Shown here piece by piece: positions 1,440 through 35,773 of a stretch of 64,000 nt of DNA. The stretch's first letter is position 1. Each line of letters opens with the position of its first letter. The position numbers and the translations under genes were made by a program. This stretch comes from a phage, in the sequence record MZ956763.1, one strand, 5' to 3'. Below the pieces are notes generated by a model. That model saw nothing but the letters and a program-made list of their open reading frames with translations. It had not been told where the DNA came from and did not search any database.

Positions 1440-1820
1440 ATGATTGAACTGTTAAAAGTCCTATATAATGAGTTTGGTTATGATAAAACTTTTACTTGTT
1501 CACAGATACGTAGTATCCATGATAAGGAATTTCCAAATGTATCCAAGACAAACAAGTCAACTCGGTTCAATCGTCTTCGCCAGAGAGGTTACATTAAAAT
1601 AGTTGGATACAAGAATAACTCTTTCGAGTATGTAATGCAGATTAACAGAGAAGTTTCAAGTAAAATACTTGAAGAGCCAACAGCCGAAGAACAAAAGATA
1701 CAAGATGGTGAAGTTCGCTTCTTTGTGGAGAAGGAAAGTTTTGGGTCAATAGATGAAGCTATCGAATATTGTAAAAAGAACATTATCCAGATAAAGCGTA
1801 GAAAGGTTATTTGGGAATAA
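1440..1820 (+). CDS. hypothetical protein, tandem paralog family (copy B2)
   Basis: start at ATG 1440 (MIELLKVLYNEFGYDKTF) right after stop of previous gene; paralog of 554..949. Confidence 0.55.
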   Translation: MIELLKVLYNEFGYDKTFTCSQIRSIHDKEFPNVSKTNKSTRFNRLRQRGYIKIVGYKNNSFEYVMQINREVSSKILEEPTAEEQKIQDGEVRFFVEKESFGSIDEAIEYCKKNIIQIKRRKVIWE

Positions 1821-1837
1821 AGAGAGAGAGAGAAACT

Positions 1838-2719
1838 ATGAAAACATCTATCCGTGTTACAGTTCATTCACCGACTAAAGGGACTCACGAAGAAGAGTTT
1901 AACATTATCCAATTCCCTTCTGGTGAGATTGGTGGACACTTTTCACAAGAGCTTGTTGATTTCACTGCTTATGCAGCATCATCTATCAACAATGTAATCA
2001 TGATTGTGAAAGGTTATGATAAGGACACATTGTTTGCTGTGGCACTCGCTAAAGAAGCAATTGATGATTTAATTCCTCATGATTATGCCTTAAAGACTGT
2101 CATCTTTTACTACTTACCAAATGCACGATATGACCGTCACATGTTTAAAGGTGATGCAGCAGCTTTGAAGGTTTTTGCTAAACAGGTTAATGCAATGGGG
2201 TTTGGTGCAGTCTGTGCAGTTGACCCTCACAGCTATGTACCAGATAACCTGTTTAACTGCTTCCAAAGTATTCCTCAAAATGAAATTGCAGTCCACTATG
2301 CAAATGACCCACTGGTTGATTACTTAGTAGCCCCAGATGCAGGTGCTGCTAAGAAGATTGCAGAGACTGCTAAAGAGGTGGATAAACCATATATCACAAT
2401 GTCTAAGGTGCGCAACCTTAAGACTGGCGAAATTACTGGTATGCGAATCCTTGATGATGTTGATTTGACAGATAAAACCGTCATGATTCTGGACGATATC
2501 TGTGATGGCGGTCGAACATTCATAGAAGCAGCTAAACATCTTCGTGAAGCAGGTGCAAAACGTGTGGAACTCTATGTAACACATGGTATCTTTTCTAAAG
2601 GTGTTGAAAACCTTCTTGACAATGGTATTGACCACATCTACACTACAAACTCTTTAGGGGAAGCTAAAGACCGTGGTTTAACACATTATGGTCAAGTTAC
2701 TGTAGCAAACCTTGATTAA
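1838..2719 (+). CDS. ribose-phosphate pyrophosphokinase (PRPP synthetase)-like protein
   Basis: type-I PRTase/PRPP-binding motif VMILDDICDGGRT; size ~290 aa; hairpin terminator downstream. Confidence 0.7.
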   Translation: MKTSIRVTVHSPTKGTHEEEFNIIQFPSGEIGGHFSQELVDFTAYAASSINNVIMIVKGYDKDTLFAVALAKEAIDDLIPHDYALKTVIFYYLPNARYDRHMFKGDAAALKVFAKQVNAMGFGAVCAVDPHSYVPDNLFNCFQSIPQNEIAVHYANDPLVDYLVAPDAGAAKKIAETAKEVDKPYITMSKVRNLKTGEITGMRILDDVDLTDKTVMILDDICDGGRTFIEAAKHLREAGAKRVELYVTHGIFSKGVENLLDNGIDHIYTTNSLGEAKDRGLTHYGQVTVANLD

Positions 2720-2765
2720 AACTTTATAGGGGGCTTTTAAGCCCCATTTTGAGAGAGATTAAAAG

Positions 2766-4547
2766 ATGACTAAATCACTTTATGCAGTACCAGCAGGTTT
2801 AAACGCAGATGCTTACAAATCTGGTCATGTTTACCAGTACCCTAGTGCAACAGATTACTTGATGTTTAACCTGACACCACGTAGTGATAAATGGTTTAAC
2901 AGCCCTTTAGCAATTGATGGTGTAGTAGCTTTTGGTATTCAACGTTTTGTTAAAGATTACTTGATAGACCACTGGAACGCCACCTTCTTTGAACGTGACA
3001 AAAAAGAAGCAATTGACGAAATCTTAGAAGTCATGAACGGTGTTCTGGGTAAAGATGCTATTGGTCGAGAACATTGGGAAGCACTTCACGACTTAGGTTA
3101 TCTACCAGTTGAGGTATACGCTGTAGAAGAAGGTACAGTTGTCCCTATGCGTGTTCCAATGATTGTATTCCAGAACACTGTTTCAGGTTTCCATTGGGTA
3201 GCGGGATATCTGGAAGATGCTTTCTCTGCTGAGATTTGGAAGGCTTGTACCATTGCAACTATTGCATTGCACTACAAACGTATCTGTAAGAAGTGGTCTG
3301 ACCTTACTTGTGACAATGACTTGCATTTACCTTATCAGTGCCATGACTTCGCTATGCGTGGTATGTCCGGCTTTACCGATGACGCATTTAACGCTGTAGG
3401 TCACTTAACCAGCTTTAAAGGGACTGATAGCTTCCCTGCTGTGTATACAGCTAAACGCATCTATGGGCAGTCCTATCCAATTTCAGATATTGGTGGCTCT
3501 GTACCAGCCACTGAACACTCTGTCATGTGTGCAAACATTGCTTGGGAAGGTGGGGATGAGTTGATTGAAGAAGAAAGACGCTTTAAAGGTGAGTTACAAA
3601 CCTTCCGTCGTTTCTTAACAGAAACTTACCCAACTGGTATTGTAAGTATTGTTTCAGATACTTATAATTTCTGGAGAACTGTATCAGTGATACTACCAGA
3701 ACTCCGTAAAGAGATTATGGAACGTGATGGCAAACTGGTAATTCGTCCTGACTCTGGAGACCCTGTACATATTGTCACAGGTTATAAAGCAATACATTTA
3801 GAGTGTGCTAAAAAGGCTTATTACGAACACCTAAGCAAGCTGGAAGCCAGCGACACAATGTTGAATGCTGTTCTGAACATGAAGCTTGAAAACATTAGCT
3901 ATGGTATTGCTGGGTGGCTACTGTCAGAAGGCTACGAAATGGTTGTTGACAGAGAAGACTTTGAAGTTGCTGATACAGTGATGTTGAAAAACGCTTATAT
4001 GGTTGGTTCTGCAAACGTTGTAACACGTCCTGTAGCAGAGATTGATGGAGCTATCAAGACACTGTATCACATCTTTGGAGGAACTATCAACTCTAAAGGT
4101 TTTAAAGTACTGGATGAGCACATTGGCCTTATTTATGGTGACTCTATCACGTTGGAACGTGCAAACGAAATCCTGAAGCGTTTGTATGAAATGGGTTTTG
4201 CAAGCTCTAACGTAGTGTTTGGTGTAGGTTCTTACACTTACCAGTACATGACTCGTGACACCTTTGCATTTGCTGTCAAAGCAACTCTTGCAAGCATTGG
4301 TGGTAAAGAGATTATGCTTGCAAAAGACCCTAAAACAGATAGTGGTGTTAAGAAATCTGCCTTTGGTGGTGTAGCACCTATGTGGGATGGTGATAAGCTG
4401 AAAGCTGTAGATGGCTATGGATTCCAGAGTTTTGCAGATGTACTTGACCACCCAGCTTGTGCCTTACGTTTAGTCTTTAGTGACTCTGAGCAGTTCGGTT
4501 ACACGACTCTTGGTGATATTCGAAATAATATTGACAAGCAGCTTTAA
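2766..4547 (+). CDS. nicotinamide phosphoribosyltransferase (NAMPT)-like protein
   Basis: 593 aa; N-terminal ADAYKSGHVYQYP resembles NAMPT TDSYKVTHYKQYP; adjacent to PRPP-synthetase-like gene. Confidence 0.75.
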   Translation: MTKSLYAVPAGLNADAYKSGHVYQYPSATDYLMFNLTPRSDKWFNSPLAIDGVVAFGIQRFVKDYLIDHWNATFFERDKKEAIDEILEVMNGVLGKDAIGREHWEALHDLGYLPVEVYAVEEGTVVPMRVPMIVFQNTVSGFHWVAGYLEDAFSAEIWKACTIATIALHYKRICKKWSDLTCDNDLHLPYQCHDFAMRGMSGFTDDAFNAVGHLTSFKGTDSFPAVYTAKRIYGQSYPISDIGGSVPATEHSVMCANIAWEGGDELIEEERRFKGELQTFRRFLTETYPTGIVSIVSDTYNFWRTVSVILPELRKEIMERDGKLVIRPDSGDPVHIVTGYKAIHLECAKKAYYEHLSKLEASDTMLNAVLNMKLENISYGIAGWLLSEGYEMVVDREDFEVADTVMLKNAYMVGSANVVTRPVAEIDGAIKTLYHIFGGTINSKGFKVLDEHIGLIYGDSITLERANEILKRLYEMGFASSNVVFGVGSYTYQYMTRDTFAFAVKATLASIGGKEIMLAKDPKTDSGVKKSAFGGVAPMWDGDKLKAVDGYGFQSFADVLDHPACALRLVFSDSEQFGYTTLGDIRNNIDKQL

Positions 4548-9029: not shown

Positions 9030-9045
9030 TAAGTAATTTCTTAAA

Positions 9046-9129: not shown

Positions 9130-9678
9130 ATGAAGAAATTGATTCTAGGATTGTGCTTAATGTTTACAGCACATTTATCTTATGCAGTTGACTGCCCAGA
9201 GCTATCAATTAGCCAAAAAGTTAACATGTTAAAAGCTTACCAGTATGGTGAGAACAACATGGGGAAAGGCTGGGGTATTACTCTAGCAGCTATAGCCTTA
9301 CAAGAGTCAGAGTTAGGTCTGAAGGTAGAGAATAAAAAGACACATGATTATGGTATTTTCCAGAATCACTTGAAGACTGTTGTAAAGCGTAACAAAATTA
9401 GTCCTAATGTGGCTAAAAAGAAACTCTTAAAAGACTTTGACTATGCTGCGAAGGAAACCCACAAAGAGCTTGAGTTTTGGACTAAGGTGCATGGTCACCC
9501 GAAGTCAAAGAAGACTTTACAAAAAGTTTTAGCATCATATAATGCTGGGTATTCGTACAGAATCCCTAAAGCTAAGAAATATTCTCAAGATGTCTATAAC
9601 AACATGAAAGTTATTGCTCAATGTGAATTTGCAACAAACATTTCTAAGGTAAACCATGAAAAAATTAAGAAAGTTTGA
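9130..9678 (+). CDS. secreted soluble lytic transglycosylase (SLT)-domain protein
   Basis: signal peptide MKKLILGLCLMFTAHLSYA; ...QESELGL...YGIFQ and AYNAG-like (SYNAGY) motifs typical of SLT family. Confidence 0.5.
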   Translation: MKKLILGLCLMFTAHLSYAVDCPELSISQKVNMLKAYQYGENNMGKGWGITLAAIALQESELGLKVENKKTHDYGIFQNHLKTVVKRNKISPNVAKKKLLKDFDYAAKETHKELEFWTKVHGHPKSKKTLQKVLASYNAGYSYRIPKAKKYSQDVYNNMKVIAQCEFATNISKVNHEKIKKV

Positions 9679-10351
9679 CGAAGTGCTGTGTCATGCTTAT
9701 GACTTACATCCCCATGAATTAGGTATTGATTCTGACATATGGACTCCAGAGCAGTGTAGAGACTTTGAAGATACTGCAAGAGAGGTTGTATGCTCACTTG
9801 AAGAGTTCCACACACCGGAGCCAATTGTGAATGTTATCGATAAAGAGACTGGGAAAGCCATAGGTGTAAGACGTGATAGTCTAGTCATAGTCAATAAAGA
9901 CCTTGTAGAGAAAGGAAATCTTATCCTAGCAGATATTGATGGTGTTCTAACATATTTTAATCACGAAGCTTACTCAGCAGAGTTGACTGATGGGTCATTT
10001 TCACAGTACACCAACTTACTTGATGCTGTAAGAGCAAAACCAACATATGTTTTCCACATCATTGATGCAATTGCAAATCATGCAGCCGTTGGGTTCTTGA
10101 CAGCAAGAGGTGAGACTCAGAGAATACCTACTGAGATGTTTTTAAGACACAATATAGAACATGATTACTTGCTTTTTATGCGTGGCTTTGGAACAAATTC
10201 TCTAAGTGCAGAAAGTTTAAAGGTTAGGATGATTCAGTCTTGCATTCTTCCTTATTTTAATATAGTATGTTTTATAGAAGATACAGAGAAGAATGTTCAG
10301 AAGGTAAACAGAATCCTTCCACACATCAAAACCATGTTAGTTAAACATTGA
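9656..10351 (+). CDS. hypothetical protein, possible HAD-like hydrolase
   Basis: 231 aa; LILADIDGVLTYF resembles HAD motif I (DxDG[TV]). Confidence 0.4.
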   Translation: MKKLRKFDEVLCHAYDLHPHELGIDSDIWTPEQCRDFEDTAREVVCSLEEFHTPEPIVNVIDKETGKAIGVRRDSLVIVNKDLVEKGNLILADIDGVLTYFNHEAYSAELTDGSFSQYTNLLDAVRAKPTYVFHIIDAIANHAAVGFLTARGETQRIPTEMFLRHNIEHDYLLFMRGFGTNSLSAESLKVRMIQSCILPYFNIVCFIEDTEKNVQKVNRILPHIKTMLVKH

Positions 10352-12380: not shown

Positions 12381-13166
12381 ATGGGTATTGTAAAAATTAT
12401 TAACGGTGATATCTTTTCAGCATTTGATAAAGGTAAGTTTGACATCATCGGTCAGGGTTGCAACTGTATGAATTTAATGGGTGCAGGTATCGCTGACAAG
12501 ATTTCTAAACTTTACCCAAAAGCATATGAGACCGATACAGAAGTTTATCTATATGCAGGTGGCATTCGTCACAAACCCTGTGAAAATTTACTGGGTAATT
12601 TCTCTGTAGCACGTTTAAAACAAGGTCGTATAGCTAACCTTTACACCCAACTTCATACTGGTAAAGATGCCCGATACAGTGCTTTAGAGTCATCTTTGAA
12701 GCAACTTAACAGATACTGTGAAGTCAATCAGTTGAAGAAAGTTGGTCTGCCTATGATTGGTGCAGGTATCGGTGGACTTGACCCTCAAGCTGTCACAGTT
12801 ATCATTAATCAGGTGATGAAGGGTGTAGATGTATATCTGTATGTCTACGAGACAGAGATGTACAACGAGTTACACTCAGGTTGGAAGAACTACTGTGAAC
12901 CAGAATACTTTGCAGGTGTAGCAGTGTTCACAGATAACGCAGTTACCCTCTTCAGACGAAGAAAAGGTAAGATACATCAAAGTAACCCTCCGGTTGAAAA
13001 GATGTCTCTAAGTAACGCTCTAGTTACCCACCTGTCGAAGAGCAATCACAGGATTGCAGTAACATTTGGCAGTGATGCAGATGCTTACATCTATGCAAGA
13101 ACTGATGAGGATATCGAGACGATTTTCTCTTCACCAGAAGTTACCTTCTTAGACGCAAAGAACTAA
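12381..13166 (+). CDS. Macro-domain (ADP-ribose binding/processing) protein
   Basis: N-terminus IINGDIFSAFDKGKFDIIGQGCNCMNLMGAGIADKI matches macrodomain GDIT...DAIVNAAN..GGG pattern; second Gly-rich loop GLPMIGAGIGGLDP. Confidence 0.65.
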   Translation: MGIVKIINGDIFSAFDKGKFDIIGQGCNCMNLMGAGIADKISKLYPKAYETDTEVYLYAGGIRHKPCENLLGNFSVARLKQGRIANLYTQLHTGKDARYSALESSLKQLNRYCEVNQLKKVGLPMIGAGIGGLDPQAVTVIINQVMKGVDVYLYVYETEMYNELHSGWKNYCEPEYFAGVAVFTDNAVTLFRRRKGKIHQSNPPVEKMSLSNALVTHLSKSNHRIAVTFGSDADAYIYARTDEDIETIFSSPEVTFLDAKN

Positions 13167-13240
13167 GAAACTCTGTAAAATATTCACAATAGACTAAGCC
13201 TTTCTTATCTGGTAAATTTTTCAGGTAAGGAGGGCTTTTT

Positions 13241-13419
13241 TATTTCAGAATTGTGCAGGTAGAGTTCTGTAGAGAAATCTGTAGAGAAAATTTTGAACTC
13301 CAAAGGGAAAATTCATTTTCAAGTTGTGCAGGTAATCTCCAAAGAGCTTTTTCATTTTCAAAACGTGCAGAGAAAAATCAGGTCGGGCAAGAAAAATCAT
13401 TTTAGAATTGTGCAGGTAG
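13241..13419. repeat. four direct repeats of ~22 nt (cATTTTCArNTTGTGCAGGTA) in non-coding region
   Basis: copies at ~13241, 13311, 13351, 13393; plus tandem 12-mer TCTGTAGAGAAA x2 at 13266-13290. Confidence 0.7.
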
Positions 13420-13623: not shown

Positions 13624-13675
13624 TTGCATCAACGGGGCGACAAGCCCGATAGCCTTAAACTAGGAGAATCTAAAA

Positions 13676-13884: not shown

Positions 13885-13970
13885 AAGTACTTTACAAGGG
13901 GCTTAAAAGTTGATATCTTAAGCCCCAGATAAAGAGCTTTATCAACAACCTTAAACTAGGAGATTCAAAA
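13885..13970 (+). repeat. reiterated intergenic module (hairpin GGGGCTTA..TAAGCCCC + CCTTAAACTAGGAGATTCAAAAATG)
   Basis: near-identical copies at 14352, 14700, 15767, 16562. Confidence 0.8.
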
Positions 13971-14351
13971 ATGGCATATCGTGCACCTAAATTCATCAAT
14001 AAAGACAATTTCCGCAATGCACTGGAAAAATCACTTGATGAGAATTTTACAGGTCGGGTTATTGTTGTACACGCATTCAATTTTAAGTATGATATTAACG
14101 GGAATAAAATCAACCATTACACGGCAACCATGTTAGATGGTGCGCTTTCAAGTGAAAAAGCCGTACTGAATGCACTTGCTGGACGTGGTAAAAACCTGAT
14201 AAAATGCAATAAGAGACGTTATCAGGGCGGCGCATATGGTTACGATGATGCTGTTTATCATCTTGAGAATATGGGCTATTCAGTGGAAAAAGCTGGAGCG
14301 CCGCAAATCATTGGTAGCGATGGTTATGTAACAATTTTCAAAATTAAATAA
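13971..14351 (+). CDS. hypothetical protein (early)
   Basis: ORF 126 aa. Confidence 0.5.
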   Translation: MAYRAPKFINKDNFRNALEKSLDENFTGRVIVVHAFNFKYDINGNKINHYTATMLDGALSSEKAVLNALAGRGKNLIKCNKRRYQGGAYGYDDAVYHLENMGYSVEKAGAPQIIGSDGYVTIFKIK

Positions 14352-30759: not shown

Positions 30760-30836
30760 CTCTGTTTAGCTCAGCTTGGTAGAGCGTTCCGTTTGGGGCG
30801 GTAAGGCCGGAGGTTCAAGTCCTCCAACAGAGACCA
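30760..30836 (+). tRNA. tRNA-Pro (anticodon TGG)
   Basis: acceptor CTCTGTT/AACAGAG, T-arm GGAGG-TTCAAGT-CCTCC, anticodon loop TTTGGGG, CCA encoded. Confidence 0.8.
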
Positions 30837-30843
30837 AATTAAT

Positions 30844-30921
30844 GTTCCAGTAGACAAAATGGTAAAGTCACCACTCTTTCAAAGTGGATATCTGAGGGTT
30901 CAAATCCCTTCTGGAACGCCA
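30844..30921 (+). tRNA. tRNA-Glu (anticodon TTC)
   Basis: acceptor GTTCCAG/CTGGAAC, anticodon arm CCACT-CTTTCAA-AGTGG, T-loop TTCAAAT. Confidence 0.8.
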
Positions 30922-30926
30922 GTTTT

Positions 30927-31003
30927 GACAGAAGACCAATTACAGCAAACTTAATCTTATTCATCTGAAGGTAAATCGGACAAAGAAGAGATTTGGTCTG
31001 GTC
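30927..31003 (+). ncRNA. structured element A (conserved ACAGAAGACC...GGTCTGG terminal stem)
   Basis: 5' GACAGAAGACCAATTACAGCAA, 3' ATTTGGTCTGGTC; family members at 31095, 31576, 31663. Confidence 0.45.
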
Positions 31004-31013
31004 ATTAAGAATT

Positions 31014-31089
31014 GCGGGTATAGAGAAAGGGCGTCTCACATGTCTCATTAGCATGGTATCGGCAGGTTCGACTCCTGCACCCGCCTCCA
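31014..31089 (+). tRNA. tRNA-Met (anticodon CAT)
   Basis: D-stem GAGA/TCTC, anticodon arm CATGT-CTCATTA-GCATG, T-arm GCAGG-TTCGACT-CCTGC; acceptor pairing imperfect by eye. Confidence 0.65.
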
Positions 31090-31094
31090 AATTT

Positions 31095-31160
31095 ACAGAA
31101 GACCGTTTACAGCAATATTTATTAAATTTTTAGCGGAAAAATTGAAAGATACGGTCTGGT
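31095..31160 (+). ncRNA. structured element B (ACAGAAGACCG...CGGTCTGG stem)
   Basis: same terminal stem motif and TTACAGCAA box as element A. Confidence 0.45.
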
Positions 31161-31172
31161 AATACTAAACAT

Positions 31173-31249
31173 GGTTAGGAAGCACATAAGGTATGTGCGG
31201 TCGCCTGTTAAGCGAATGGCACAGGGTTCGAATCCCTGACTAACCGCCA
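31173..31249 (+). tRNA. tRNA-Asn (anticodon GTT)
   Basis: acceptor GGTTAGG/ACTAACC, D-stem GCAC/GTGC, loop CTGTTAA, T-arm CAGGG-TTCGAAT-CCCTG. Confidence 0.8.
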
Positions 31250-31318
31250 AATTTAGGAGAGAAGCGATTGCTCACCGATTTGTAAGGTGCAAGTCCTTAG
31301 CCTGAATAGAAATTAAAT

Positions 31319-31405
31319 GTGTCGTTATCCCGTAGATGGTAGCGGTGGGGACTGTAAATCCCTTGTCATTGAGACTCGGTAGGTTCGACTCCTACACGGC
31401 ACACC
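31319..31405 (+). tRNA. tRNA-Tyr (anticodon GTA), class II
   Basis: acceptor GTGTCGT/ACGGCAC, anticodon arm GGGGA-CTGTAAA-TCCCT, long variable arm, T-loop TTCGACT. Confidence 0.75.
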
Positions 31406-31411
31406 AATAAA

Positions 31412-31489
31412 GGCTATGTAGTTTAATAGGGTTAAAATACTCCCCTGTCACGGGAGATGATGTGAGTTCAAGTCTCATCGTAGCCGCCA
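31412..31489 (+). tRNA. tRNA-Asp (anticodon GTC)
   Basis: acceptor GGCTATG/CGTAGCC, anticodon arm CTCCC-CTGTCAC-GGGAG, T-loop TTCAAGT. Confidence 0.8.
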
Positions 31490-31575
31490 AATTATAATAA
31501 GTATTTCAAAATGATGTTTTGAGAGGGCTATTTAGCCCCTCCCTTAAAGAGTTCTTACGAGTATTCTTTAAAGGA

Positions 31576-31651
31576 GCAGAAGACCAAATACAGCAAGTTA
31601 CTTAAAATTTCAAGCCAATTTAATTTTGAAAAATTTAAAACTTGGTCTGGC
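31576..31651 (+). ncRNA. structured element C (GCAGAAGACCAAATACAGCAA...TTGGTCTGG)
   Basis: same terminal stem motif family. Confidence 0.45.
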
Positions 31652-31662
31652 TCAACAAATTT

Positions 31663-31794
31663 ACAGAAGACCGTTTACAGCAAAACTTAAACAATCTATT
31701 TCTCGGTAAAGAAAAGGAGAAGGTTCGATTCCTTCACTCGGCAGATGTCGAGTTGGTGTAATGGTAGCACTTAAGATGGTAAACAACGGTCTGG
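31663..31794 (+). ncRNA. structured element D with internal permuted tRNA-like domain (candidate YrlA-like Y RNA)
   Basis: terminal stem ACAGAAGACCGTTT/AAACAACGGTCTGG; internal order T-arm (GAAGG-TTCGATT-CCTTC), acceptor 3' strand ACTCGGC, loop AGAT, acceptor 5' strand GTCGAGT, D-arm GTGTAATGGTAGCAC. Confidence 0.5.
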
Positions 31795-31938
31795 TAATTA
31801 TCTTTGTAGATAAGTTATTAAGCTTACCTGTGAGTATGCGACCACAAAGGGTGAAAGGGTAAATTCTAGATTTAAACCCAAAAAGGCACATCGCTACAGA
31901 CCTTAAGCAAGTCTGGGTAGCTTATCTACAAAGATAAT
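31795..31938 (+). repeat. 19-bp perfect inverted repeat flanking a 106-nt segment
   Basis: AATTATCTTTGTAGATAAG at 31795-31813 and exact reverse complement CTTATCTACAAAGATAATT at 31920-31938. Confidence 0.85.
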
Positions 31939-31943
31939 TTAAT

Positions 31944-32019
31944 GGAAGTGTAGCAGAATGGTGATGCGGCAGACTTTTAATCTGACAGGCGATGGGTTCG
32001 AATCCCTCCACTTCTACCA
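31944..32019 (+). tRNA. tRNA-Lys (anticodon TTT)
   Basis: acceptor GGAAGTG/CACTTCT, anticodon arm GCAGA-CTTTTAA-TCTGA, T-loop TTCGAAT; T-stem weak by eye. Confidence 0.65.
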
Positions 32020-32023
32020 AAAT

Positions 32024-32100
32024 GGTTCAGTCGCAGATAAGGTAATGCAAGGGTTTCATAAGCCCTATGAATGTGGGTTCGATTCCCATCTGAACCTCCA
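32024..32100 (+). tRNA. tRNA with CAT anticodon (Met, fMet or Ile-lysidine)
   Basis: acceptor GGTTCAG/CTGAACC, anticodon arm AGGGT-TTCATAA-GCCCT, T-arm GTGGG-TTCGATT-CCCAT. Confidence 0.7.
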
Positions 32101-32102
32101 AT

Positions 32103-32177
32103 TGTGGGTTAGCATAAATGGTAATGCAAACGGCTGATAACCGTTAGAAGAGGGTTCGATACCCTCACCTACAACCA
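32103..32177 (+). tRNA. tRNA-Ile (anticodon GAT)
   Basis: acceptor TGTGGGT/ACCTACA, D-stem GCAT/ATGC, anticodon arm AACGG-CTGATAA-CCGTT, T-loop TTCGATA. Confidence 0.8.
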
Positions 32178-32192
32178 ATTTCAATAGAGTTG

Positions 32193-32221
32193 TTGACATT
32201 GAGATGTGACTACTTTATAGT
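32193..32221 (+). promoter_or_regulatory. sigma70-like promoter TTGACA-17-TATAGT inside tRNA cluster
   Basis: consensus -35, good -10; followed by ~290 nt without tRNA. Confidence 0.55.
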
Positions 32222-32514
32222 AACTAAAATACTTCACAATATGTATAATTCAAACACCAATACATGAGCGTTAGACGTAACACAATGTGGGGAAATTTGT
32301 TGTACATATTCTGAATAGTTTTCGTTGCGTAGCGTCTATTTTGCAAATTTAAAATAAATGCAAACGACAATGTTTTTCTGGCAGTAGCTTGATAGGCTAA
32401 ACACCAGTGAGGTCTTCCAATCCCTCATCAAAGAATTTGGCGTACTCGCCCACGGTATGATTAATAAGGTGGGCATCTTTAAGGGCTTTCTAAGAGAGTC
32501 TTTAAAGATAATTA

Positions 32515-32596
32515 CGGGGCGTATCTCAGCGGTCTTCTAAACCGCCGTTAACCGAGTAAGTGGAGTATGCGGGTTCGAGTCCTGCCGCCTCGACCA
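32515..32596 (+). tRNA. atypical tRNA-like gene, possible tRNA-Arg (anticodon TCT)
   Basis: acceptor CGGGGCG/CGCCTCG + A + CCA, T-arm GCGGG-TTCGAGT-CCTGC, arm GCGGT-CTTCTAA-ACCGC; no canonical D-arm found by eye, 23-nt segment before T-arm. Confidence 0.45.
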
Positions 32597-32738
32597 ATTT
32601 AGTTAGCAGATTACTTAGACGACCTAAGCGGGTCTTCCTGTAGGGAGGTGGTCTGTATCTCATGTTTTCCAGAACATGTAAATAATCTGAGAAGGGGCTT
32701 TACAGTGTTGAGATAATACGGTAAGCTTCGAATTATAG

Positions 32739-32822
32739 TGTGGGACGATGTTAAGACTCTAAGGCATGAGCAACGGCCTCCAAAACCGTTTCAAAGGGGT
32801 TCAACTCCTCCGTCCCATGCCA
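32739..32822 (+). tRNA. atypical tRNA, possible tRNA-Trp (anticodon CCA)
   Basis: acceptor GTGGGAC/GTCCCAT + G + CCA, anticodon arm ACGGC-CTCCAAA-ACCGT, T-loop TTCAACT; D-region ~8 nt longer than canonical. Confidence 0.5.
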
Positions 32823-32835
32823 AAGTCTTATTAGG

Positions 32836-32923
32836 GGTAGGTAGCGGCTAATGGCAGCCAAACAGTCTTGAAAACTGTTGCCACTGTAGAGATACGGTGA
32901 GGGTTCGACTCCTTTACTTACCG
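32836..32923 (+). tRNA. tRNA-Ser (anticodon TGA), class II
   Basis: acceptor GGTAGGT/ACTTACC, anticodon arm ACAGT-CTTGAAA-ACTGT, 20-nt variable arm, T-arm GAGGG-TTCGACT-CCTTT. Confidence 0.7.
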
Positions 32924-33180
32924 CCTAATAAGATTTAAAGCCAAGCTTCATTCGGATGTCGCTTTGGTATCCCGCGTGTATTGTCGTACACACTGATAAA
33001 ACACCTAGTAGGTGTCACGGAGAAGAGATAATATCAAGCTCTCCAAAGGTTCTAGTCACCGGATTAAACAAGACTATGCAAAGACCTTTTTAGGTCTTTT
33101 TAGAGGGCTTCTAAGGTTATTACAGCTTGTTGTGGAACCTTGTTGCTTAGGTTCTTAGAAGTTCTCTAAAAAGATTTAAT

Positions 33181-33258
33181 GGGAGATTGACGGTAATTGG
33201 TAAACCTACCATCCTTAGAAGTTGGTGTTTGAGGGTTCGAATCCCTTGTCTCCTACCA
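33181..33258 (+). tRNA. tRNA with TAG anticodon (Leu by anticodon) but short variable arm
   Basis: acceptor GGGAGAT/GTCTCCT + A + CCA, anticodon arm CCATC-CTTAGAA-GTTGG, T-arm GAGGG-TTCGAAT-CCCTT, variable ~5 nt. Confidence 0.55.
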
Positions 33259-33265
33259 AATTAAT

Positions 33266-33341
33266 GCAGGTGTAGCAAAATGGTTATGCGGCTGACTCTT
33301 AATCAGTAAGACGATGGGTTCAATTCCCTCCACCTGTACCA
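33266..33341 (+). tRNA. tRNA-Lys (anticodon CTT)
   Basis: paralog of 31944 tRNA; acceptor GCAGGTG/CACCTGT, anticodon arm GCTGA-CTCTTAA-TCAGT. Confidence 0.65.
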
Positions 33342-33347
33342 GACATT

Positions 33348-33423
33348 GGGGTCATAGTTTATATGGTTAAAATTCGAGTTTTGCAAACTTGGGAACTGAG
33401 TTCAATTCTCAGTGACTCCACCA
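33348..33423 (+). tRNA. tRNA-Ala (anticodon TGC)
   Basis: acceptor GGGGTCA/TGACTCC, anticodon arm CGAGT-TTTGCAA-ACTTG, T-arm CTGAG-TTCAATT-CTCAG. Confidence 0.8.
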
Positions 33424-33429
33424 ATTAGT

Positions 33430-33504
33430 GCATCCATAGTTTAAACGGGAAAATTACAGTCTTCCAAACTGAGGTTGAGGGTTCGATTCCCTCTGGATGC
33501 TCCA
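33430..33504 (+). tRNA. tRNA-Gly (anticodon TCC)
   Basis: acceptor GCATCCA/TGGATGC, anticodon loop CTTCCAA, T-arm GAGGG-TTCGATT-CCCTC. Confidence 0.8.
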
Positions 33505-33511
33505 AATTAAT

Positions 33512-33587
33512 GCTCCTATCGTATAATAGGCTATTACGGTTGCCTTGTAAGCAACTTATCAGGGTTCGAATCCTTGTGGGAGCACCA
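33512..33587 (+). tRNA. tRNA-Thr (anticodon TGT)
   Basis: acceptor GCTCCTA/TGGGAGC, anticodon arm GTTGC-CTTGTAA-GCAAC, T-loop TTCGAAT. Confidence 0.8.
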
Positions 33588-33590
33588 ATT

Positions 33591-33677
33591 CAGAGGTCAA
33601 GTGAAAGACCGCTGGTGTCAACTGAAGACCGTAACAAATTCCACGGAGTTGAGTTAGCGGCACAACTTCAGACCTCT
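33591..33677 (+). ncRNA. structured element E (CAGAGGTC...GACCTCT stem, internal AAGACCG boxes)
   Basis: inverted repeat AGAGGTC/GACCTCT enclosing ~70 nt containing two copies of the GAAGACCG box. Confidence 0.35.
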
Positions 33678-33681
33678 TTCA

Positions 33682-33757
33682 CACTCGCTTAGTTTATATG
33701 GTAAAACACCACCCTTACAAGATGAAGAAAAAGGTTCAAGTCCTTTAGTGAGTACCA
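33682..33757 (+). tRNA. tRNA-like gene, possibly tRNA-Val (TAC) or pseudogene
   Basis: acceptor ACTCGCT/AGTGAGT + A + CCA, D-stem GTTT/AAAC, T-arm AAAGG-TTCAAGT-CCTTT; anticodon-region CCACC-CTTACAA-GATGA does not pair. Confidence 0.4.
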
Positions 33758-33758
33758 T

Positions 33759-33836
33759 GTTCCAGTATCCCAATTGGCAGAGGATGCAAGCTCAAACCTT
33801 GTATTAGTGACGGTTCGAATCCGTCTTGGAACACCA
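33759..33836 (+). tRNA. tRNA with CAA anticodon (Leu by anticodon) but short variable arm
   Basis: acceptor GTTCCAG/TTGGAAC + A + CCA, anticodon arm GCAAG-CTCAAAC-CTTGT, T-arm GACGG-TTCGAAT-CCGTC, variable 6 nt. Confidence 0.6.
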
Positions 33837-33855
33837 ATTTTAAGAGGCTATTTAG

Positions 33856-34413
33856 ATGAGATATTTGAAGTATGCTTCATGGATTTTCCTAGCTTTACTA
33901 GAGCCATTTGCAGCAACCCTATCAGTCATCTTAGCACCTTTCGTAGTTCCATTCTACAGTGAGAAGAAAGGACACCTACCTTTTGGATTCAGATGGATGG
34001 AGACCTATGACAACCCAATTGATGGTGATGAAGGTCACGTTAAAAGATGGGCTAAGATTAGAAAGATTGGTAAGCTGGGTGTCTACATGCAGAGAGTTGG
34101 ATGGCTCTGGAGAAACAAAGCTTATAACTTCTCTTACCATGTATTAGGAAGAGATGTAAAAGATGTTACTAAGTGGAAAGGTAATATCAACGTAAGTTCT
34201 GACCCTGAAGATAATCAGACAGGTTATCTCCTAATGTGGAACAACAATGCTTGGGGATTATTCGCTTTTATTCCGTCAATTAAAATCTTTGGTAAACAGT
34301 TTTACTGGAGAATTTATGTTGGATGGAAACTAAAAAGTGTTGTCCCAGAAGAAAGAGCATTCTCAAGGGAAAGAGTTATGTTGGCATTCTTTATTCATCC
34401 ACTGAGAAAGTAA
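33856..34413 (+). CDS. hypothetical membrane-associated protein encoded inside tRNA cluster
   Basis: ORF 185 aa, hydrophobic N-terminus (WIFLALLEPFAATLSVILAPFVVPF), Trp/Lys-rich. Confidence 0.45.
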   Translation: MRYLKYASWIFLALLEPFAATLSVILAPFVVPFYSEKKGHLPFGFRWMETYDNPIDGDEGHVKRWAKIRKIGKLGVYMQRVGWLWRNKAYNFSYHVLGRDVKDVTKWKGNINVSSDPEDNQTGYLLMWNNNAWGLFAFIPSIKIFGKQFYWRIYVGWKLKSVVPEERAFSRERVMLAFFIHPLRK

Positions 34414-34421
34414 AGATTTAA

Positions 34422-34497
34422 AGGGGATTAGTTTACAAGGTTAAAACCTCGGTCTTTGAAATCGAAGAAGTTGGTTCAATTCCAACATCCCCAGCCA
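34422..34497 (+). tRNA. tRNA-Gln (anticodon TTG)
   Basis: D-stem GTTT/AAAC, anticodon arm TCGGT-CTTTGAA-ATCGA, T-arm GTTGG-TTCAATT-CCAAC, 3' ATCCCCA-G-CCA. Confidence 0.7.
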
Positions 34498-34499
34498 AT

Positions 34500-34579
34500 G
34501 CTCCATTACTCCAATTGGCAGAGAGGCCAGACTTAAAATCTGTGTTATGTATCGGTTCGAATCCGATATGGAGTACCAA
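34500..34579 (+). tRNA. tRNA with TAA anticodon (Leu by anticodon) but short variable arm
   Basis: acceptor GCTCCAT/ATGGAGT + A + CCA, anticodon arm CCAGA-CTTAAAA-TCTGT, T-arm ATCGG-TTCGAAT-CCGAT. Confidence 0.6.
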
Positions 34580-34584
34580 TTTTA

Positions 34585-34660
34585 GCGGTATAGCATAATT
34601 GGCAATGCAACAGTCTCTGAAGCTGTCCTATTAAGGTTCAAATCCTTATACCGCTGCCAC
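34585..34660 (+). tRNA. tRNA-Gln (anticodon CTG)
   Basis: acceptor AGCGGTA/TACCGCT, D-stem GCAT/ATGC, anticodon arm ACAGT-CTCTGAA-GCTGT, T-arm TAAGG-TTCAAAT-CCTTA. Confidence 0.7.
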
Positions 34661-34691
34661 TTCTAAGGGTTCTTACGAGAGTCCTTAAATG

Positions 34692-34767
34692 TGGCCTTAT
34701 CATAAATGGTAATGACCCATGCTGTGAACATGGTCTATACGGGTTCAAATCCCGTAGGTCACCCCAA
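34692..34767 (+). tRNA. tRNA-His (anticodon GTG)
   Basis: acceptor GTGGCCT/AGGTCAC, D-stem TCAT/ATGA, anticodon arm CCATG-CTGTGAA-CATGG, T-arm ACGGG-TTCAAAT-CCCGT. Confidence 0.8.
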
Positions 34768-34772
34768 TTTAT

Positions 34773-34849
34773 AGTCCAAGTAGCTTATATGGTTAAAGCG
34801 CGTGTCTGAAAAACATGAGAAGAGGGTTCAAATCCCACTGGACTACCAA
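34773..34849 (+). tRNA. tRNA-Phe (anticodon GAA)
   Basis: acceptor TAGTCCA/TGGACTA, anticodon arm CGTGT-CTGAAAA-ACATG, T-loop TTCAAAT; 3' CCA not fully encoded. Confidence 0.7.
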
Positions 34850-34864
34850 TTTCAAAGGTGCTTA

Positions 34865-35599
34865 ATGAAAGAGATGACAGAACAAGGTAAGGAGATTTTT
34901 AATCTCTTAAAAACCGGTAAAGGGTTTTCTAACCCACTTATTACTGGTGCAGCAGTTCTCGGTGGAACCGTAGCTGCCTCTACATCACTTGTAAGCTCTA
35001 TTAGCTCTGTAACAGACCCTACAATGAATGAGAAACTTGTTGCTGCTGGACTTACAACAGTCCTTCTAAACAGCTTTACAACAAGCCTGACAAGCACTAC
35101 AGCAACTACTAAGACCCTAACAGACTATGGTCAAAAGTCTATTGATGAGTTTTCATCACGTATGCAGGTAGCAAAGGGATACTCCAATGTTATGGGTGCA
35201 GCAGGAGAACAAGTTGGTTGTACACCGTTCAGTGGTATTATGGGTGTTGCTACAGAATATGGTCAAAAAGCTATTGATACGATTAACAGTACACTAGAGA
35301 GTGTTAACGATGTATTAAGTGACTTACAAGACGCTATTGACAAGGGTCTTGATACTGTTTCTGATTTAGCTAACCAAGCTGTCAGTAAGATTAATGAAGG
35401 TATCTCAAAGATTACAGCTTATGCAGATGAAGTTGTGCAGATGATTGAAGAAGAAGCTGCCCTTATTGCAGAGTACCTTAAAACGAATATCAATGGGTTC
35501 TTAGCAGGTATCTTACCAGACTGGTTTGATGATGCTTGTAAAACTGGTGTGATTGACACTATTGCAACACCAGAAATGAAGAACGCATTACAGAAATAA
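34865..35599 (+). CDS. hypothetical Ser/Thr/Ala-rich protein (between tRNA-Phe and tRNA-Ser)
   Basis: start moved to ATG 34865 (MKEMTEQG..) because ORF-track start lies inside tRNA-Phe; 244 aa. Confidence 0.5.
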   Translation: MKEMTEQGKEIFNLLKTGKGFSNPLITGAAVLGGTVAASTSLVSSISSVTDPTMNEKLVAAGLTTVLLNSFTTSLTSTTATTKTLTDYGQKSIDEFSSRMQVAKGYSNVMGAAGEQVGCTPFSGIMGVATEYGQKAIDTINSTLESVNDVLSDLQDAIDKGLDTVSDLANQAVSKINEGISKITAYADEVVQMIEEEAALIAEYLKTNINGFLAGILPDWFDDACKTGVIDTIATPEMKNALQK

Positions 35600-35600
35600 T

Positions 35601-35693
35601 GGAAGATTAACCCTAAAAGGTAAGGGAGCAGTTTGCTAAACTGCCAGTAGCTGAGAAATCGGTGTACCAGTTCAAGTCTGGTATCTTCCTCCA
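35601..35693 (+). tRNA. tRNA-Ser (anticodon GCT), class II
   Basis: acceptor GGAAGAT/ATCTTCC + T + CCA, anticodon arm GCAGT-TTGCTAA-ACTGC, 21-nt variable arm, T-arm ACCAG-TTCAAGT-CTGGT. Confidence 0.8.
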
Positions 35694-35697
35694 ATTT

Positions 35698-35773
35698 GAA
35701 TCCGTGACAGAAATGGCTATGTGCCTGTCTGCAAAACAGGTTTATAAGGGTTCGAGTCCCTTCGGATTCTCCA
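35698..35773 (+). tRNA. tRNA-Cys (anticodon GCA)
   Basis: acceptor GAATCCG/CGGATTC + T + CCA, anticodon arm CCTGT-CTGCAAA-ACAGG, T-arm AAGGG-TTCGAGT-CCCTT. Confidence 0.8.

What the first reader, a model, noticed from the sequence alone, without database searches (positions are those of the whole stretch)
12381..13166. Macro-domain protein in the same early region as the NAD+ module
The N-terminal half matches the macrodomain fingerprint (GDI..., DIIGQGCNCMNLMGAGIA, GLPMIGAGIGG). Macrodomains bind or hydrolyse ADP-ribose conjugates; with the NAD+ genes this suggests an ADP-ribosylation-centred counter-defence or host-takeover module. The C-terminal ~100 aa are unassigned.
Basis: partly seen in the sequence, partly recalled or inferred. 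Interest (0 to 1): 0.55.

Follow-up and report, generated by a model that had tools for sequence, protein, structure and literature searches.

The report
Phage macrodomain enzyme with orphan tail
This Felix O1-like phage gene really does encode an ADP-ribose-handling macrodomain enzyme. It belongs to a phage family recently shown to disarm bacterial NAD+/ADP-ribose defences, and here it is fused to a fast-evolving extra domain of unknown function found only in this phage group.

Summary
Window 12381-13166 (+) is a 261-aa ORF of a Felixounavirus whose first ~159 residues are a macrodomain (Pfam Macro 31.9 bits against a cut-off of 22; AF2 pLDDT 86; best folds DarG and TARG1).

It belongs to the phage Tk.4/Adpp family (PHROG_335). 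Two relatives have been characterised:
- T4 Tk.4/AdfM is needed to resist DarTG2 (34% identity).
- Vibrio phage Gary Adpp is an ADPR-1''-phosphate phosphatase that feeds the NARP1 NAD+ pathway against RES-domain defence (29% identity).

The whole family has an invariant Gln where TARG1 and DarG have the catalytic Lys, as SCO6735 does.

The window's "NAD+ genes" (1811-4547) are the orthologues of the Bas63 genes in which NARP1 was discovered. They lie 7.8 kb upstream in other transcription units. In several other phage lineages the homologous macro gene sits inside or beside the NARP1 operon.

The C-terminal ~100 aa form an orphan beta-rich domain. It is always fused, is restricted to Ounavirinae, is under purifying but faster evolution, and is replaced by an unrelated domain in Kolesnikvirus.

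This allele has Gln at residue 25, where all but the Kolesnikvirus relatives have His. That His is the residue whose H24A construct was used to inactivate Adpp.

Verdict: a new variant of a known anti-defence kind. The substrate is unresolved.

The parts
12381..13166 (+). Complete CDS (261 aa plus stop) of the macro-CTD protein. It is the orthologue of Bas63 bas63_0095 and identical to Escherichia phage RP3 UKH47876.1.
   Evidence: A GGGAG Shine-Dalgarno-like site lies 10 nt upstream, and the start is 1 nt after the upstream ORF's stop.
12381..12857 (+). N-terminal macrodomain (residues 1-159), ALC1/TARG1 class, phage Tk.4/Adpp family.
12453..12455 (+). Codon 25, CAG (Gln). Nearly all relatives have His (CAC/CAT) here. 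It aligns with Gary Adpp H24 (the H24A construct), with TARG1 H32 and, by motif spacing, with SCO6735 H24.
12462..12464 (+). Codon 28, Asn. It is invariant in the family and aligns with the conserved active-site Asn of DarG; by motif position it matches phiKZ AdfM N23 and SCO6735 N27.
12636..12650 (+). NLYTQ motif (residues 86-90). Q90 occupies the position of the catalytic Lys of TARG1 (K84) and DarG (K80), as Gln85 does in SCO6735.
   Evidence: literature
12750..12782 (+). PMIGAGIGGLD, the glycine-rich diphosphate-binding loop (residues 124-134). G131 sits where TARG1 has the catalytic D125.
12858..13163 (+). C-terminal orphan domain (residues 160-261). It is predicted to be beta-rich (about six strands plus one helix) and is found only fused to this macrodomain in Ounavirinae-like phages.
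13196..13237 (+). Terminator-like hairpin (17 pairs) followed by a T-run, 30 nt after the stop. The gene is therefore last in its transcription unit.
1811..2719 (+). Adps (PRPP-synthetase-like ADPR pyrophosphokinase) of NARP1. A possible functional partner, not adjacent.
   Evidence: Pfam; orthologue of Bas63 gene 79
2766..4547 (+). Namat (Nampt-like nicotinamide ADPR transferase) of NARP1. A possible functional partner, not adjacent.
   Evidence: Pfam; orthologue of Bas63 gene 80

Best explanation
The gene encodes a two-domain counter-defence enzyme.

Shown:
- The N-terminal 159 residues are a macrodomain of the ALC1/TARG1 class.
- It belongs to the phage Tk.4/Adpp family.
- Its active site uses an invariant Gln (Q90) plus Asn (N28), not the Lys/Asp pair of TARG1.

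Inferred: like its relatives, it binds ADP-ribose and cleaves whatever is attached to the ribose C1''.

The role I think most likely in this phage is an unlinked Adpp. It would remove the 1''-phosphate from ADPR-1''-phosphate, the product of RES-domain (aRES) NAD+ phosphorolysis. That would let the phage's own NARP1 enzymes (Adps and Namat, 7.8 kb upstream) rebuild NAD+. The same active site may well also remove DarT2-type ADP-ribose from thymidine in ssDNA, as proposed for T4 Tk.4/AdfM. The two roles are not exclusive.

The fast-evolving, lineage-specific C-terminal domain is inferred to be an adaptor or inhibitor module that contacts a variable partner. Candidates are a host toxin or effector, DNA, or the replisome. 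No step of this mechanism has been tested on this protein.
For: Fold and family:
- Pfam, PHROG and DarG profile hits.
- AF2 model and Foldseek hits.
- Family profile against PDB: TARG1 3.6e-19, SCO6735 2.9e-17, DarG 1e-16, Poa1p 2e-13.

Homology to characterised anti-defence proteins:
- T4 Tk.4: 34% identity, E=8e-23. A tk.4 knockout sensitises T4 to DarTG2.
- Adpp proteins: 29-35% identity. Purified Gary Adpp converts ADPR-1''P to ADPR, and the Adps-Adpp-Namat operon overrides aRES.

Shared active site: N28, Q90 and the GxG loop are invariant in 17 diverse family members. The N-x-Y/H-x-Q motif, with Gln at the same position, is present in every Adpp sequence read from table S1.

The Gln type can be catalytic. 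SCO6735 has Gln85 at that position, cleaves thymidine-ADPr, and Q85A is dead.

NARP1 link:
- Window 1811-4547 is orthologous to Bas63 genes 79-80, where NARP1 was discovered.
- The homologous macro gene is sandwiched in or adjacent to NARP1 in Thalassavirus Dax, a P. aeruginosa phage with the JG004/PAK_P-type macro protein, and IMG/VR loci L114 and L089/L090.
- 15% of NARP1 operons have a macro gene within two genes.
- aRES occurs in E. coli, Klebsiella and Enterobacter.

The CTD is a real domain:
- pLDDT is about 80-90.
- dN/dS is 0.22, against 0.07 for the macrodomain.
- Homology holds across distant Ounavirinae-like phages (hhalign 97.5%).
Against: - No experiment exists on any Ounavirinae member.
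- The gene is not in the NARP1 operon here. It is 7.8 kb away with terminator-like sites between, so it falls outside the published definition of NARP1-AP.
- Sequence cannot place it with Adpp rather than T4 AdfM. Deep nodes have 3-18% bootstrap, and identities are 29-35% against 34%.
- Motif style (HGCNC, YTQ, an 8-residue loop, GAGIGG) looks more like T4 than like the Thalassavirus and JG004-type Adpp proteins.
- Single-sequence PDB and profile hits for the window protein favour DarG/TARG1 over Poa1p.
- This allele has Gln at residue 25. The equivalent His is the residue mutated (H24A) to inactivate Adpp, so this copy may be a poor phosphatase.
- All characterised Adpp and Tk.4 proteins are single-domain, so the CTD is unexplained.
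Confidence: 0.45

Rival explanations
1. AdfM-type role is primary. The macrodomain removes DarT2-placed ADP-ribose from thymidine in phage ssDNA. The C-terminal domain, by analogy with the C-terminal DarT-binding domain of DarG, binds and blocks the DarT2 toxin or targets the enzyme to replicating DNA. The protein would then be a phage-borne functional DarG mimic.
For: - T4 Tk.4 is among the closest characterised homologues (34%, E=8e-23), and its knockout sensitises T4 to DarTG2.
- The best single-sequence PDB hit and best fold hit are the DarG macrodomain.
- DarG profiles give E of about 1e-13, better than generic Macro.
- ALC1-class enzymes, including the Gln-type SCO6735, cleave thymidine-ADPr.
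- The macro-plus-C-terminal-domain architecture parallels DarG.
- The CTD evolves three times faster and is swapped in Kolesnikvirus, as expected for a host-protein-binding module.
- DarTG2 systems exist in E. coli (PMC7003065, EPEC DarTG; darTG2 expressed in K-12).
Against: - The catalytic Lys80 of DarG is absent.
- The enzymatic basis of T4 AdfM is itself only inferred.
- The recurrent NARP1 linkage of the family is not explained by a DNA-repair role.
Confidence: 0.35
2. Non-catalytic reader or sponge. The protein, at least the Gln25 allele in this window, binds ADP-ribose or an ADPR-derived immune signal without turnover. The CTD would provide oligomerisation or a second binding surface.
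For: - The TARG1 Lys/Asp pair is missing.
- A near-invariant active-site His is lost in this allele.
- Phage sponges for ADPR-based signals are a known strategy. Sequestration of Thoeris signals is mentioned in the abstract shown and the text.
Against: - Q90, N28 and the Gly-rich loop are invariant across the family. That pattern fits a catalytic site of the SCO6735 type.
- A family member is a proven enzyme (Adpp).
- The macrodomain dN/dS of 0.07 fits a conserved enzyme.
Confidence: 0.08
3. General de-MARylase or O-acetyl-ADP-ribose deacetylase acting on proteins. It would reverse host or phage protein ADP-ribosylation, or act as a YmdB-like RNase III regulator, as some database annotations say.
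For: - Source annotations read 'O-acetyl-ADP-ribose deacetylase (regulator of RNase III)'.
- TARG1 and SCO6735 also act on protein-linked ADPr.
Against: - The annotations are transferred labels.
- No MacroD/YmdB-type structure appears among the sequence hits. The hits are ALC1/TARG1-class plus weak viral Mac1.
- No ADP-ribosyltransferase partner was seen among the neighbours scanned.
Confidence: 0.07
4. Poa1p-like housekeeping in RNA repair. It would dephosphorylate ADPR-1''-phosphate arising from a Tpt1/KptA-type RNA 2'-phosphotransferase reaction, alongside the phage's kinase/phosphatase-like gene.
For: - The family profile matches Poa1p over its full length (1.8e-13).
- A HAD_PNKP-like gene lies 2 kb upstream and is syntenic in relatives.
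Against: - No Tpt1-like or ligase gene was identified in the segment examined.
- The 231-aa 'PNK' has no Pfam hit here.
- No phage pathway of this kind is documented.
Confidence: 0.05

Closest known systems
Adpp (ADPR-1''-phosphate phosphatase of NARP1-AP; Vibrio phage Gary KNV71_gp137; bioRxiv 10.64898/2026.01.28.702374)
   Same: - Same phage macrodomain family: 29-35% identity to Adpp proteins, with shared invariant Asn, Gln and Gly-loop.
- The phage also carries NARP1.
- Both are Poa1p/TARG1-class.
   Different: - The gene is 7.8 kb from NARP1 instead of inside the operon.
- It carries an extra ~100-aa C-terminal domain.
- This allele has Gln at the position of His24, the residue targeted by the H24A inactivating construct.
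- Motif style is HGCNC/YTQ rather than HQCNC/YGQY.
T4 Tk.4 / AdfM (anti-DarT factor macro; bioRxiv 10.1101/2025.11.20.689424)
   Same: - 34% identity over the whole macrodomain (E=8e-23).
- Same NLYTQ and GCNC motifs and the same loop length.
- Lytic coliphage context.
   Different: - T4 Tk.4 is a 155-aa single domain in a phage without NARP1 (my knowledge; no Adps/Namat within 10 kb of the macro gene in the large ~165-172-kb contigs, which are probably T4-like).
- The window protein has the CTD and co-occurs with NARP1.
SCO6735 of Streptomyces coelicolor (PDB 5E3B; PMC9411070)
   Same: - ALC1/TARG1-class macrodomain lacking the Lys/Asp pair.
- Gln at the catalytic position, supported by a conserved Asn.
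- The family profile hits 5e3b at 2.9e-17.
- It cleaves thymidine-linked ADPr on ssDNA.
   Different: - SCO6735 is bacterial, DNA-damage-induced and single-domain.
- The window sequence alone does not reach 5e3b.
- A residue-by-residue alignment to 5e3b could not be displayed, so the Gln equivalence is transitive via TARG1/DarG.
DarG antitoxin (DarTG2) and phiKZ gp104 AdfM
   Same: - Best fold match (5m3e, TM 0.82).
- An N-terminal macrodomain followed by a second domain, as in DarG.
- DarG-like GxGxGGL loop.
   Different: - NCBIfam DarG score is 51.6 against a cut-off of 250.
- Catalytic Lys80 is replaced by Gln, whereas phiKZ gp104 keeps the Lys (PTKDNW).
- The CTD is unrelated to DarG's toxin-binding domain.
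- There is no DarT neighbour.
- Only 24-25% identity to gp104.
Yeast Poa1p / human TARG1 (OARD1)
   Same: - Same macrodomain class.
- His at TARG1 H32, shared by the family.
- Glycine-rich loops.
   Different: - TARG1 K84 and D125 correspond to Q90 and G131 here.
- Both are eukaryotic housekeeping enzymes without the extra domain.

Membership tests
Macro domain (Pfam PF01661) | Profile score above the curated gathering cut-off | tested here: met
   31.9 bits against 22, E=1.4e-7, residues 27-141 covering profile positions 4-117 of 118
Macro domain (Pfam PF01661) | Macrodomain alpha/beta/alpha fold | tested here: met
   AF2 pLDDT 86. 227 PDB matches at E<=1e-3; the macrodomains among them are led by DarG and TARG1 at TM 0.76-0.84.
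Macro domain (Pfam PF01661) | Binds ADP-ribose | not testable with these tools
   Only inferred, from the conserved Asn and Gly-rich loops
TARG1-type hydrolase | Catalytic Lys84/Asp125 pair | tested here: not met
   Profile alignments place Q90 on K84 and G131 on D125
DarG antitoxin (NCBIfam NF048014 equivalog) | Score above the equivalog cut-off over the full length, including the C-terminal DarT-binding domain | tested here: not met
   51.6 bits against 250. Only profile positions 3-153 of 338 match. PADLOC DarG matches positions 15-147 of 329.
DarG antitoxin (NCBIfam NF048014 equivalog) | Catalytic Lys80 | tested here: not met
   TQLH aligns with DarG TKKH. Gln is invariant in the family.
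DarG antitoxin (NCBIfam NF048014 equivalog) | Encoded next to a DarT toxin | tested here: not met
   The neighbours are small phage ORFs with no Pfam hits
SCO6735-type Gln macrodomain hydrolase | Gln at the position of the DarG/TARG1 catalytic Lys, with a supporting Asn | tested here: met
   Q90 and N28 are invariant. The equivalence of SCO6735 Gln85 to K80/K84 is taken from PMC9411070. The family profile hits 5e3b at 2.9e-17.
SCO6735-type Gln macrodomain hydrolase | Hydrolysis of thymidine-linked ADP-ribose on ssDNA | not testable with these tools
   Needs an enzyme assay
Phage Adpp (NARP1-AP) | Homologous macrodomain of the Poa1p-like phage family | tested here: met
   tblastn hit to Dax gp176 (H57). 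29-35% identity to table S1 Adpp sequences. Same PHROG.
Phage Adpp (NARP1-AP) | Located within two genes of the Adps/Namat genes | tested here: not met
   7.5-7.8 kb from Namat in the window and in the 17 Ounavirinae loci whose flank reached the NARP1 genes, with about 12 ORFs between
Phage Adpp (NARP1-AP) | NARP1 (Adps plus Namat) present in the same genome | tested here: met
   Window 1811-2716 and 2766-4544. They are orthologues of Bas63 genes 79-80.
Phage Adpp (NARP1-AP) | Active-site His (Gary H24) | tested here: not met
   Codon 25 is CAG (Gln) in the window, against CAC/CAT in 29 of 29 relatives and in Bas63. The feature is met in 72 of 73 database family proteins.
Phage Adpp (NARP1-AP) | ADPR-1''-phosphate phosphatase activity and rescue from aRES | not testable with these tools
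   Needs LC-MS and plaque assays
T4 Tk.4/AdfM | Sequence homology over the whole macrodomain | tested here: met
   34% identity, E=8e-23
T4 Tk.4/AdfM | Protects the phage from DarTG2 | not testable with these tools
   Needs phage genetics
MacroD/YmdB (the source of some database labels) | Closest relatives are of the MacroD type | tested here: not met
   Sequence and profile hits are ALC1/TARG1-class. No YmdB or MacroD structures are listed.

The most novel reading that the evidence does not exclude
The C-terminal domain is a new, rapidly diversifying inhibitor module that physically binds a host defence effector such as DarT2 or an aRES NADase. Functionally it would resemble DarG's C-terminal domain or aRad1, but it has an unrelated fold. 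The protein would then be a dual-mode anti-defence factor that both blocks the effector and erases its product. Ounavirinae genera would swap the module (Felix-type against Kolesnikvirus-type) in an arms race. A corollary is that one Gln-type macrodomain serves both NAD+ reconstitution (ADPR-1''P) and DNA de-ADP-ribosylation.
Probability: 0.2. Interest if true: 0.7.

Novelty: new variant of a known kind. Interest (0 to 1): 0.5.

Why it matters
Bas63, a close relative of this phage, is the model in which NARP1 was discovered. The published view is that plain NARP1 cannot beat RES-type NAD+ phosphorolysis unless a macrodomain phosphatase sits in the operon. If the unlinked macro-CTD gene supplies that activity, two things follow. 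Operon-based surveys undercount NARP1-AP, and Felix O1-like phages, which are widely used for Salmonella and E. coli typing and biocontrol, may already resist aRES.

The same family also contains T4's anti-DarTG2 factor. This protein is therefore a convenient test of whether one Gln-type macrodomain erases two chemically different defence products.

The orphan C-terminal domain is conserved in about 250 genomes and is exchanged for an unrelated one in Erwinia phages. It is a candidate new anti-defence or targeting module.

Tried and rejected
1. **C-terminal domain homologues.** None of these found anything beyond the protein's own family:
   - A word-index search with the single sequence and with a 15-sequence profile found nothing or only a fragment.
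   - Exhaustive phmmer over 1.84 billion representatives found only its own family.
   - tblastn of phages found 256 records, all consistent with the Ounavirinae macro gene.
   - Pfam per member and a PDB profile search gave only noise.
   - afdb50 was not available.
2. **A 'Rosetta stone' stand-alone CTD gene** next to macro genes in other phages. None was found in 16,576 ORF segments of about 119 loci plus the window.
3. **CTD similarity to the aRES inhibitor aRad1.** None.
4. **Net charge of the CTD** as a DNA-binding or DNA-mimic clue. It was inconsistent across members.
5. **A tree to place the protein with Adpp or with T4 AdfM.** Deep nodes are unresolved, with 3-18% bootstrap.
6. **A direct residue alignment to SCO6735 (5e3b).** The tool prints only the top five matches, all of them TARG1, so the alignment could not be displayed.
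7. **Literature on the Felix O1 or Felixounavirus macrodomain, or on DarTG sensitivity.** Nothing relevant.
8. **The YmdB / RNase III regulator label and the generic 'phosphatase' label.** Both were rejected as transferred annotations.
9. **ALITA (Justusliebigvirus) as a further NARP1-adjacent case.** Not adjacent. That homologue instead has an N-terminal extension.
Full report
**What the window is.** The segment 11000-15000 matches 258 phage records at about 91% nucleotide identity. Almost all of them are Felixounavirus and related Ounavirinae of E. coli, Salmonella, Shigella and Citrobacter. The exact protein is on record as a hypothetical protein of Escherichia phage RP3. In the well-annotated relative Bas63 (JohannRWettstein) the gene is bas63_0095, 'putative phosphatase'.

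**The observation.** The ORF at 12381-13166 (+) is real, 261 aa long, and contains the quoted motifs. Its start lies 1 nt after the stop of the upstream small ORF, with a GGGAG site 10 nt upstream. A 17-pair terminator-like hairpin follows at 13196-13237. The evidence for the macrodomain:
- Pfam Macro is above its curated cut-off (31.9 against 22 bits, residues 27-141).
- PHROG_335 matches at E=2.5e-112 over the whole length.
- The PADLOC and NCBIfam DarG profiles match the macro part at about 1e-13.
- An AF2 model built on a 19-sequence alignment has pLDDT 86 and pTM 0.86.
- Its best solved-structure neighbours are the DarG macrodomains, TARG1 and Poa1p.

The macrodomain claim is therefore confirmed.

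**Which macrodomain.** Single-sequence and profile searches against PDB place the protein in the ALC1/TARG1-like class. A profile of 17 diverse phage relatives gives TARG1 3.6e-19, SCO6735 (5e3b) 2.9e-17, BT1257, DarG 1e-16 and Poa1p 2e-13, each over the full length.

Three independent alignments, to Taq DarG, TARG1 and phiKZ gp104, put T89-Q90 on the Thr-Lys of those proteins. The same alignments put G131 on TARG1 D125. The catalytic Lys/Asp pair is therefore absent. Q90 sits in the motif NLYTQ. It is invariant in:
- all 19 full-length relatives;
- 72 of 72 intact database members;
- T4 Tk.4;
- the 17-member broad alignment;
- every NARP1-associated Adpp sequence I read from the Osterman table.

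The literature supplies a precedent. SCO6735 is an ALC1-class macrodomain with Gln85 at the position of DarG K80 and TARG1 K84. It cleaves thymidine-linked ADP-ribose from ssDNA, and Q85A and N27S abolish its activity (PMC9411070; PMC9967889). The Gln here is thus compatible with catalysis. I could not display a direct alignment to 5e3b, so that equivalence is transitive.

**Characterised relatives.** tblastn finds the N-terminal 160 residues in about 2,775 phage records, including T4 Tk.4.
- *T4 Tk.4.* Identity is 34% (E=8e-23). The HIDEN-SEQ preprint reports tk.4 as the single T4 gene depleted on a DarTG2 host. A clean knockout sensitised T4 to DarTG2, and the authors named the gene adfM. 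Enzymatic reversal was inferred, not shown.
- *phiKZ gp104.* This separately named AdfM removes DarT2 marks in vitro. It is only about 25% identical and keeps the Lys, so it belongs to a different lineage.
- *Gary Adpp.* A January 2026 preprint shows that a Poa1p-like macro protein sits between Adps and Namat in Vibrio phage Gary. Purified Adpp dephosphorylates ADPR-1''-phosphate, the product of RES-domain 'aRES' defence, to ADPR. This lets NARP1 rebuild NAD+. The table of constructs lists an H24A mutant as the inactivating change.

The window macrodomain is 29% identical to Gary Adpp and 33-35% identical to the JG004-type and phiPsa374/VCM-type Pseudomonas phage Adpp proteins. That is no further than T4 Tk.4. 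In a neighbour-joining tree the Ounavirinae proteins form a 98% clade, but deeper nodes have 3-18% support. Sequence alone cannot say which characterised function applies.

**The NAD+ genes.** Window 1811-2716 (Pribosyl_synth/Pribosyltran) and 2766-4544 (NAMPT_N/NAPRTase) are the orthologues of Bas63 genes 79-80. Those are the very genes in which NARP1 (Adps plus Namat) was discovered. They are 7.5-7.8 kb upstream of the macro gene in the window and in the 17 Ounavirinae loci whose flank reached them. Between them lie rIIA, rIIB and an SLT-like gene. There is also a gene annotated as polynucleotide kinase in Bas63 (HAD_PNKP-like in relatives), the spanins and several small ORFs. Terminator-like sites occur at 9043 and 10838.

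Elsewhere the link is tight:
- Dax (Thalassavirus) has PRS-like, macro and Nampt-like genes in a row.
- A P. aeruginosa phage with the JG004-type macro protein has PRS-like, Nampt-like, a small ORF and then macro.
- IMG/VR locus L114 has the macro gene sandwiched, and L089/L090 have it 336 bp from the Nampt-like gene.
- The preprint counts a macro gene within two genes of 15% of NARP1 operons.

The family is also common where NARP1 is not nearby. Neither the large (~165-172 kb) contigs, probably T4-like, nor ALITA has NARP1 genes near the macro gene. Conversely, many Gram-positive NARP1 phages give no hit to this macro.

**The C-terminal domain.** Residues ~160-261 are predicted with confidence as a small beta-rich domain.
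- *No relatives elsewhere.* Every sequence, profile and fold search found nothing outside the same protein in Ounavirinae-like phages. No stand-alone copy exists in any fetched locus.
- *Real and old.* Profiles of the Felix-like group and of a distant ~250-aa group match at 97.5% probability. That distant group comes from phages with the same rIIB ... SLT-like ... HAD_PNKP-like ... macro gene order.
- *Faster evolution.* Identity to the window drops to 47-55% and then 23-24% where the macrodomain keeps 75-80% and 52%. dN/dS is 0.22 against 0.07.
- *Replaced in Kolesnikvirus.* In Erwinia phage Panisse the syntenic 260-aa orthologue has a C-terminal ~105 aa with no detectable similarity.
- *Not DarG-like.* It does not resemble DarG's toxin-binding domain or aRad1.

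A conserved enzyme joined to a fast-changing, replaceable appendage suggests an adaptor or inhibitor that meets a variable partner. That is inference only.

**An allele-specific oddity.** Residue 25 is Gln (CAG) in the window. All 29 IMG/VR full-length relatives and Bas63 have His (CAC/CAT). Among 73 database family proteins, only the window's own sequence has Gln. Kolesnikvirus orthologues also have Gln. This His corresponds to Gary Adpp H24, to TARG1 H32 and, by spacing, to SCO6735 H24. It may be a sequencing error, a tolerated change or a functional loss.

**Synthesis.** Shown:
- a conserved, selected two-domain gene;
- a macrodomain of the phage Tk.4/Adpp family with a Gln-type site;
- NARP1 in the same genome;
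- an orphan CTD.

Inferred: counter-defence by hydrolysis at the ribose C1''. I rank the unlinked-Adpp reading slightly first (0.45) because of the recurrent NARP1 association and the presence of NARP1 here. The AdfM/DarT2 reading comes next (0.35) because of the DarG-like hits and the DarG-like two-domain layout. The two may both be true. Against the Adpp reading stand the distance from NARP1, the T4-like motifs and the His25Gln change.

No Ounavirinae member has been studied. The finding is a new variant of a recently described kind, of moderate interest, with clear and cheap experiments to settle it.

Noticed in passing
window 12453-12455: Codon 25 of the macro gene is CAG (Gln). Every close relative examined has CAC/CAT (His) there. 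The equivalent His is the residue mutated (H24A) to inactivate Adpp. Only the Kolesnikvirus orthologues share the Gln.
   Followed up: partly
window 13242-13419: Three to four direct copies of a ~20-nt motif (ATTTTnGAATTGTGCAGGTAG), spaced 39-84 nt apart, lie in the ~500-bp intergenic region just after the macro gene's terminator. Bas63 annotates two small reverse ORFs there. Their function is unknown; they could be regulatory sites or iterons.
   Followed up: no
window 1811-2719 and 2766-4547: The genes annotated as PRPP synthetase and Nampt are orthologues of Bas63 genes 79-80. They are therefore the experimentally defined NARP1 enzymes Adps and Namat, not a canonical salvage pair.
   Followed up: yes
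L036 3129-6135 (Vibrio phage Dax); L119 1461-4980 (Pseudomonas phage SW_PA2862_7_24); L114; L089/L090: Homologues of the window macrodomain lie inside or directly beside the NARP1 genes in at least four unrelated phage lineages.
   Followed up: partly
L037 2998-3780 (Erwinia phage Panisse, Kolesnikvirus): The syntenic orthologue keeps the macrodomain (44% identity) but carries a C-terminal ~105 aa with no detectable similarity to the Felix-type C-terminal domain. The appendage has been exchanged within the subfamily.
   Followed up: partly
L120 4752-5468 (Escherichia phage ALITA, Justusliebigvirus): The homologue there is 238 aa, with the macrodomain at the C-terminal end and an ~83-aa N-terminal extension. 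This is another fused architecture in the same family.
   Followed up: no
window 30760-35773: A cluster of 24 tRNA genes on the + strand.
   Followed up: no
window 13653-13675 and 13949-13971: A near-identical 23-nt element (CCTTAAACTAGGAGAaTCtAAAA) lies immediately upstream of two successive small ORFs. It looks like a reused ribosome-binding context.
   Followed up: no
window 9656-10351: The 231-aa ORF annotated 'polynucleotide kinase' in Bas63 has no Pfam hit here at E<=0.01. Its counterparts in distant relatives show only weak or faint HAD_PNKP hits.
   Followed up: no
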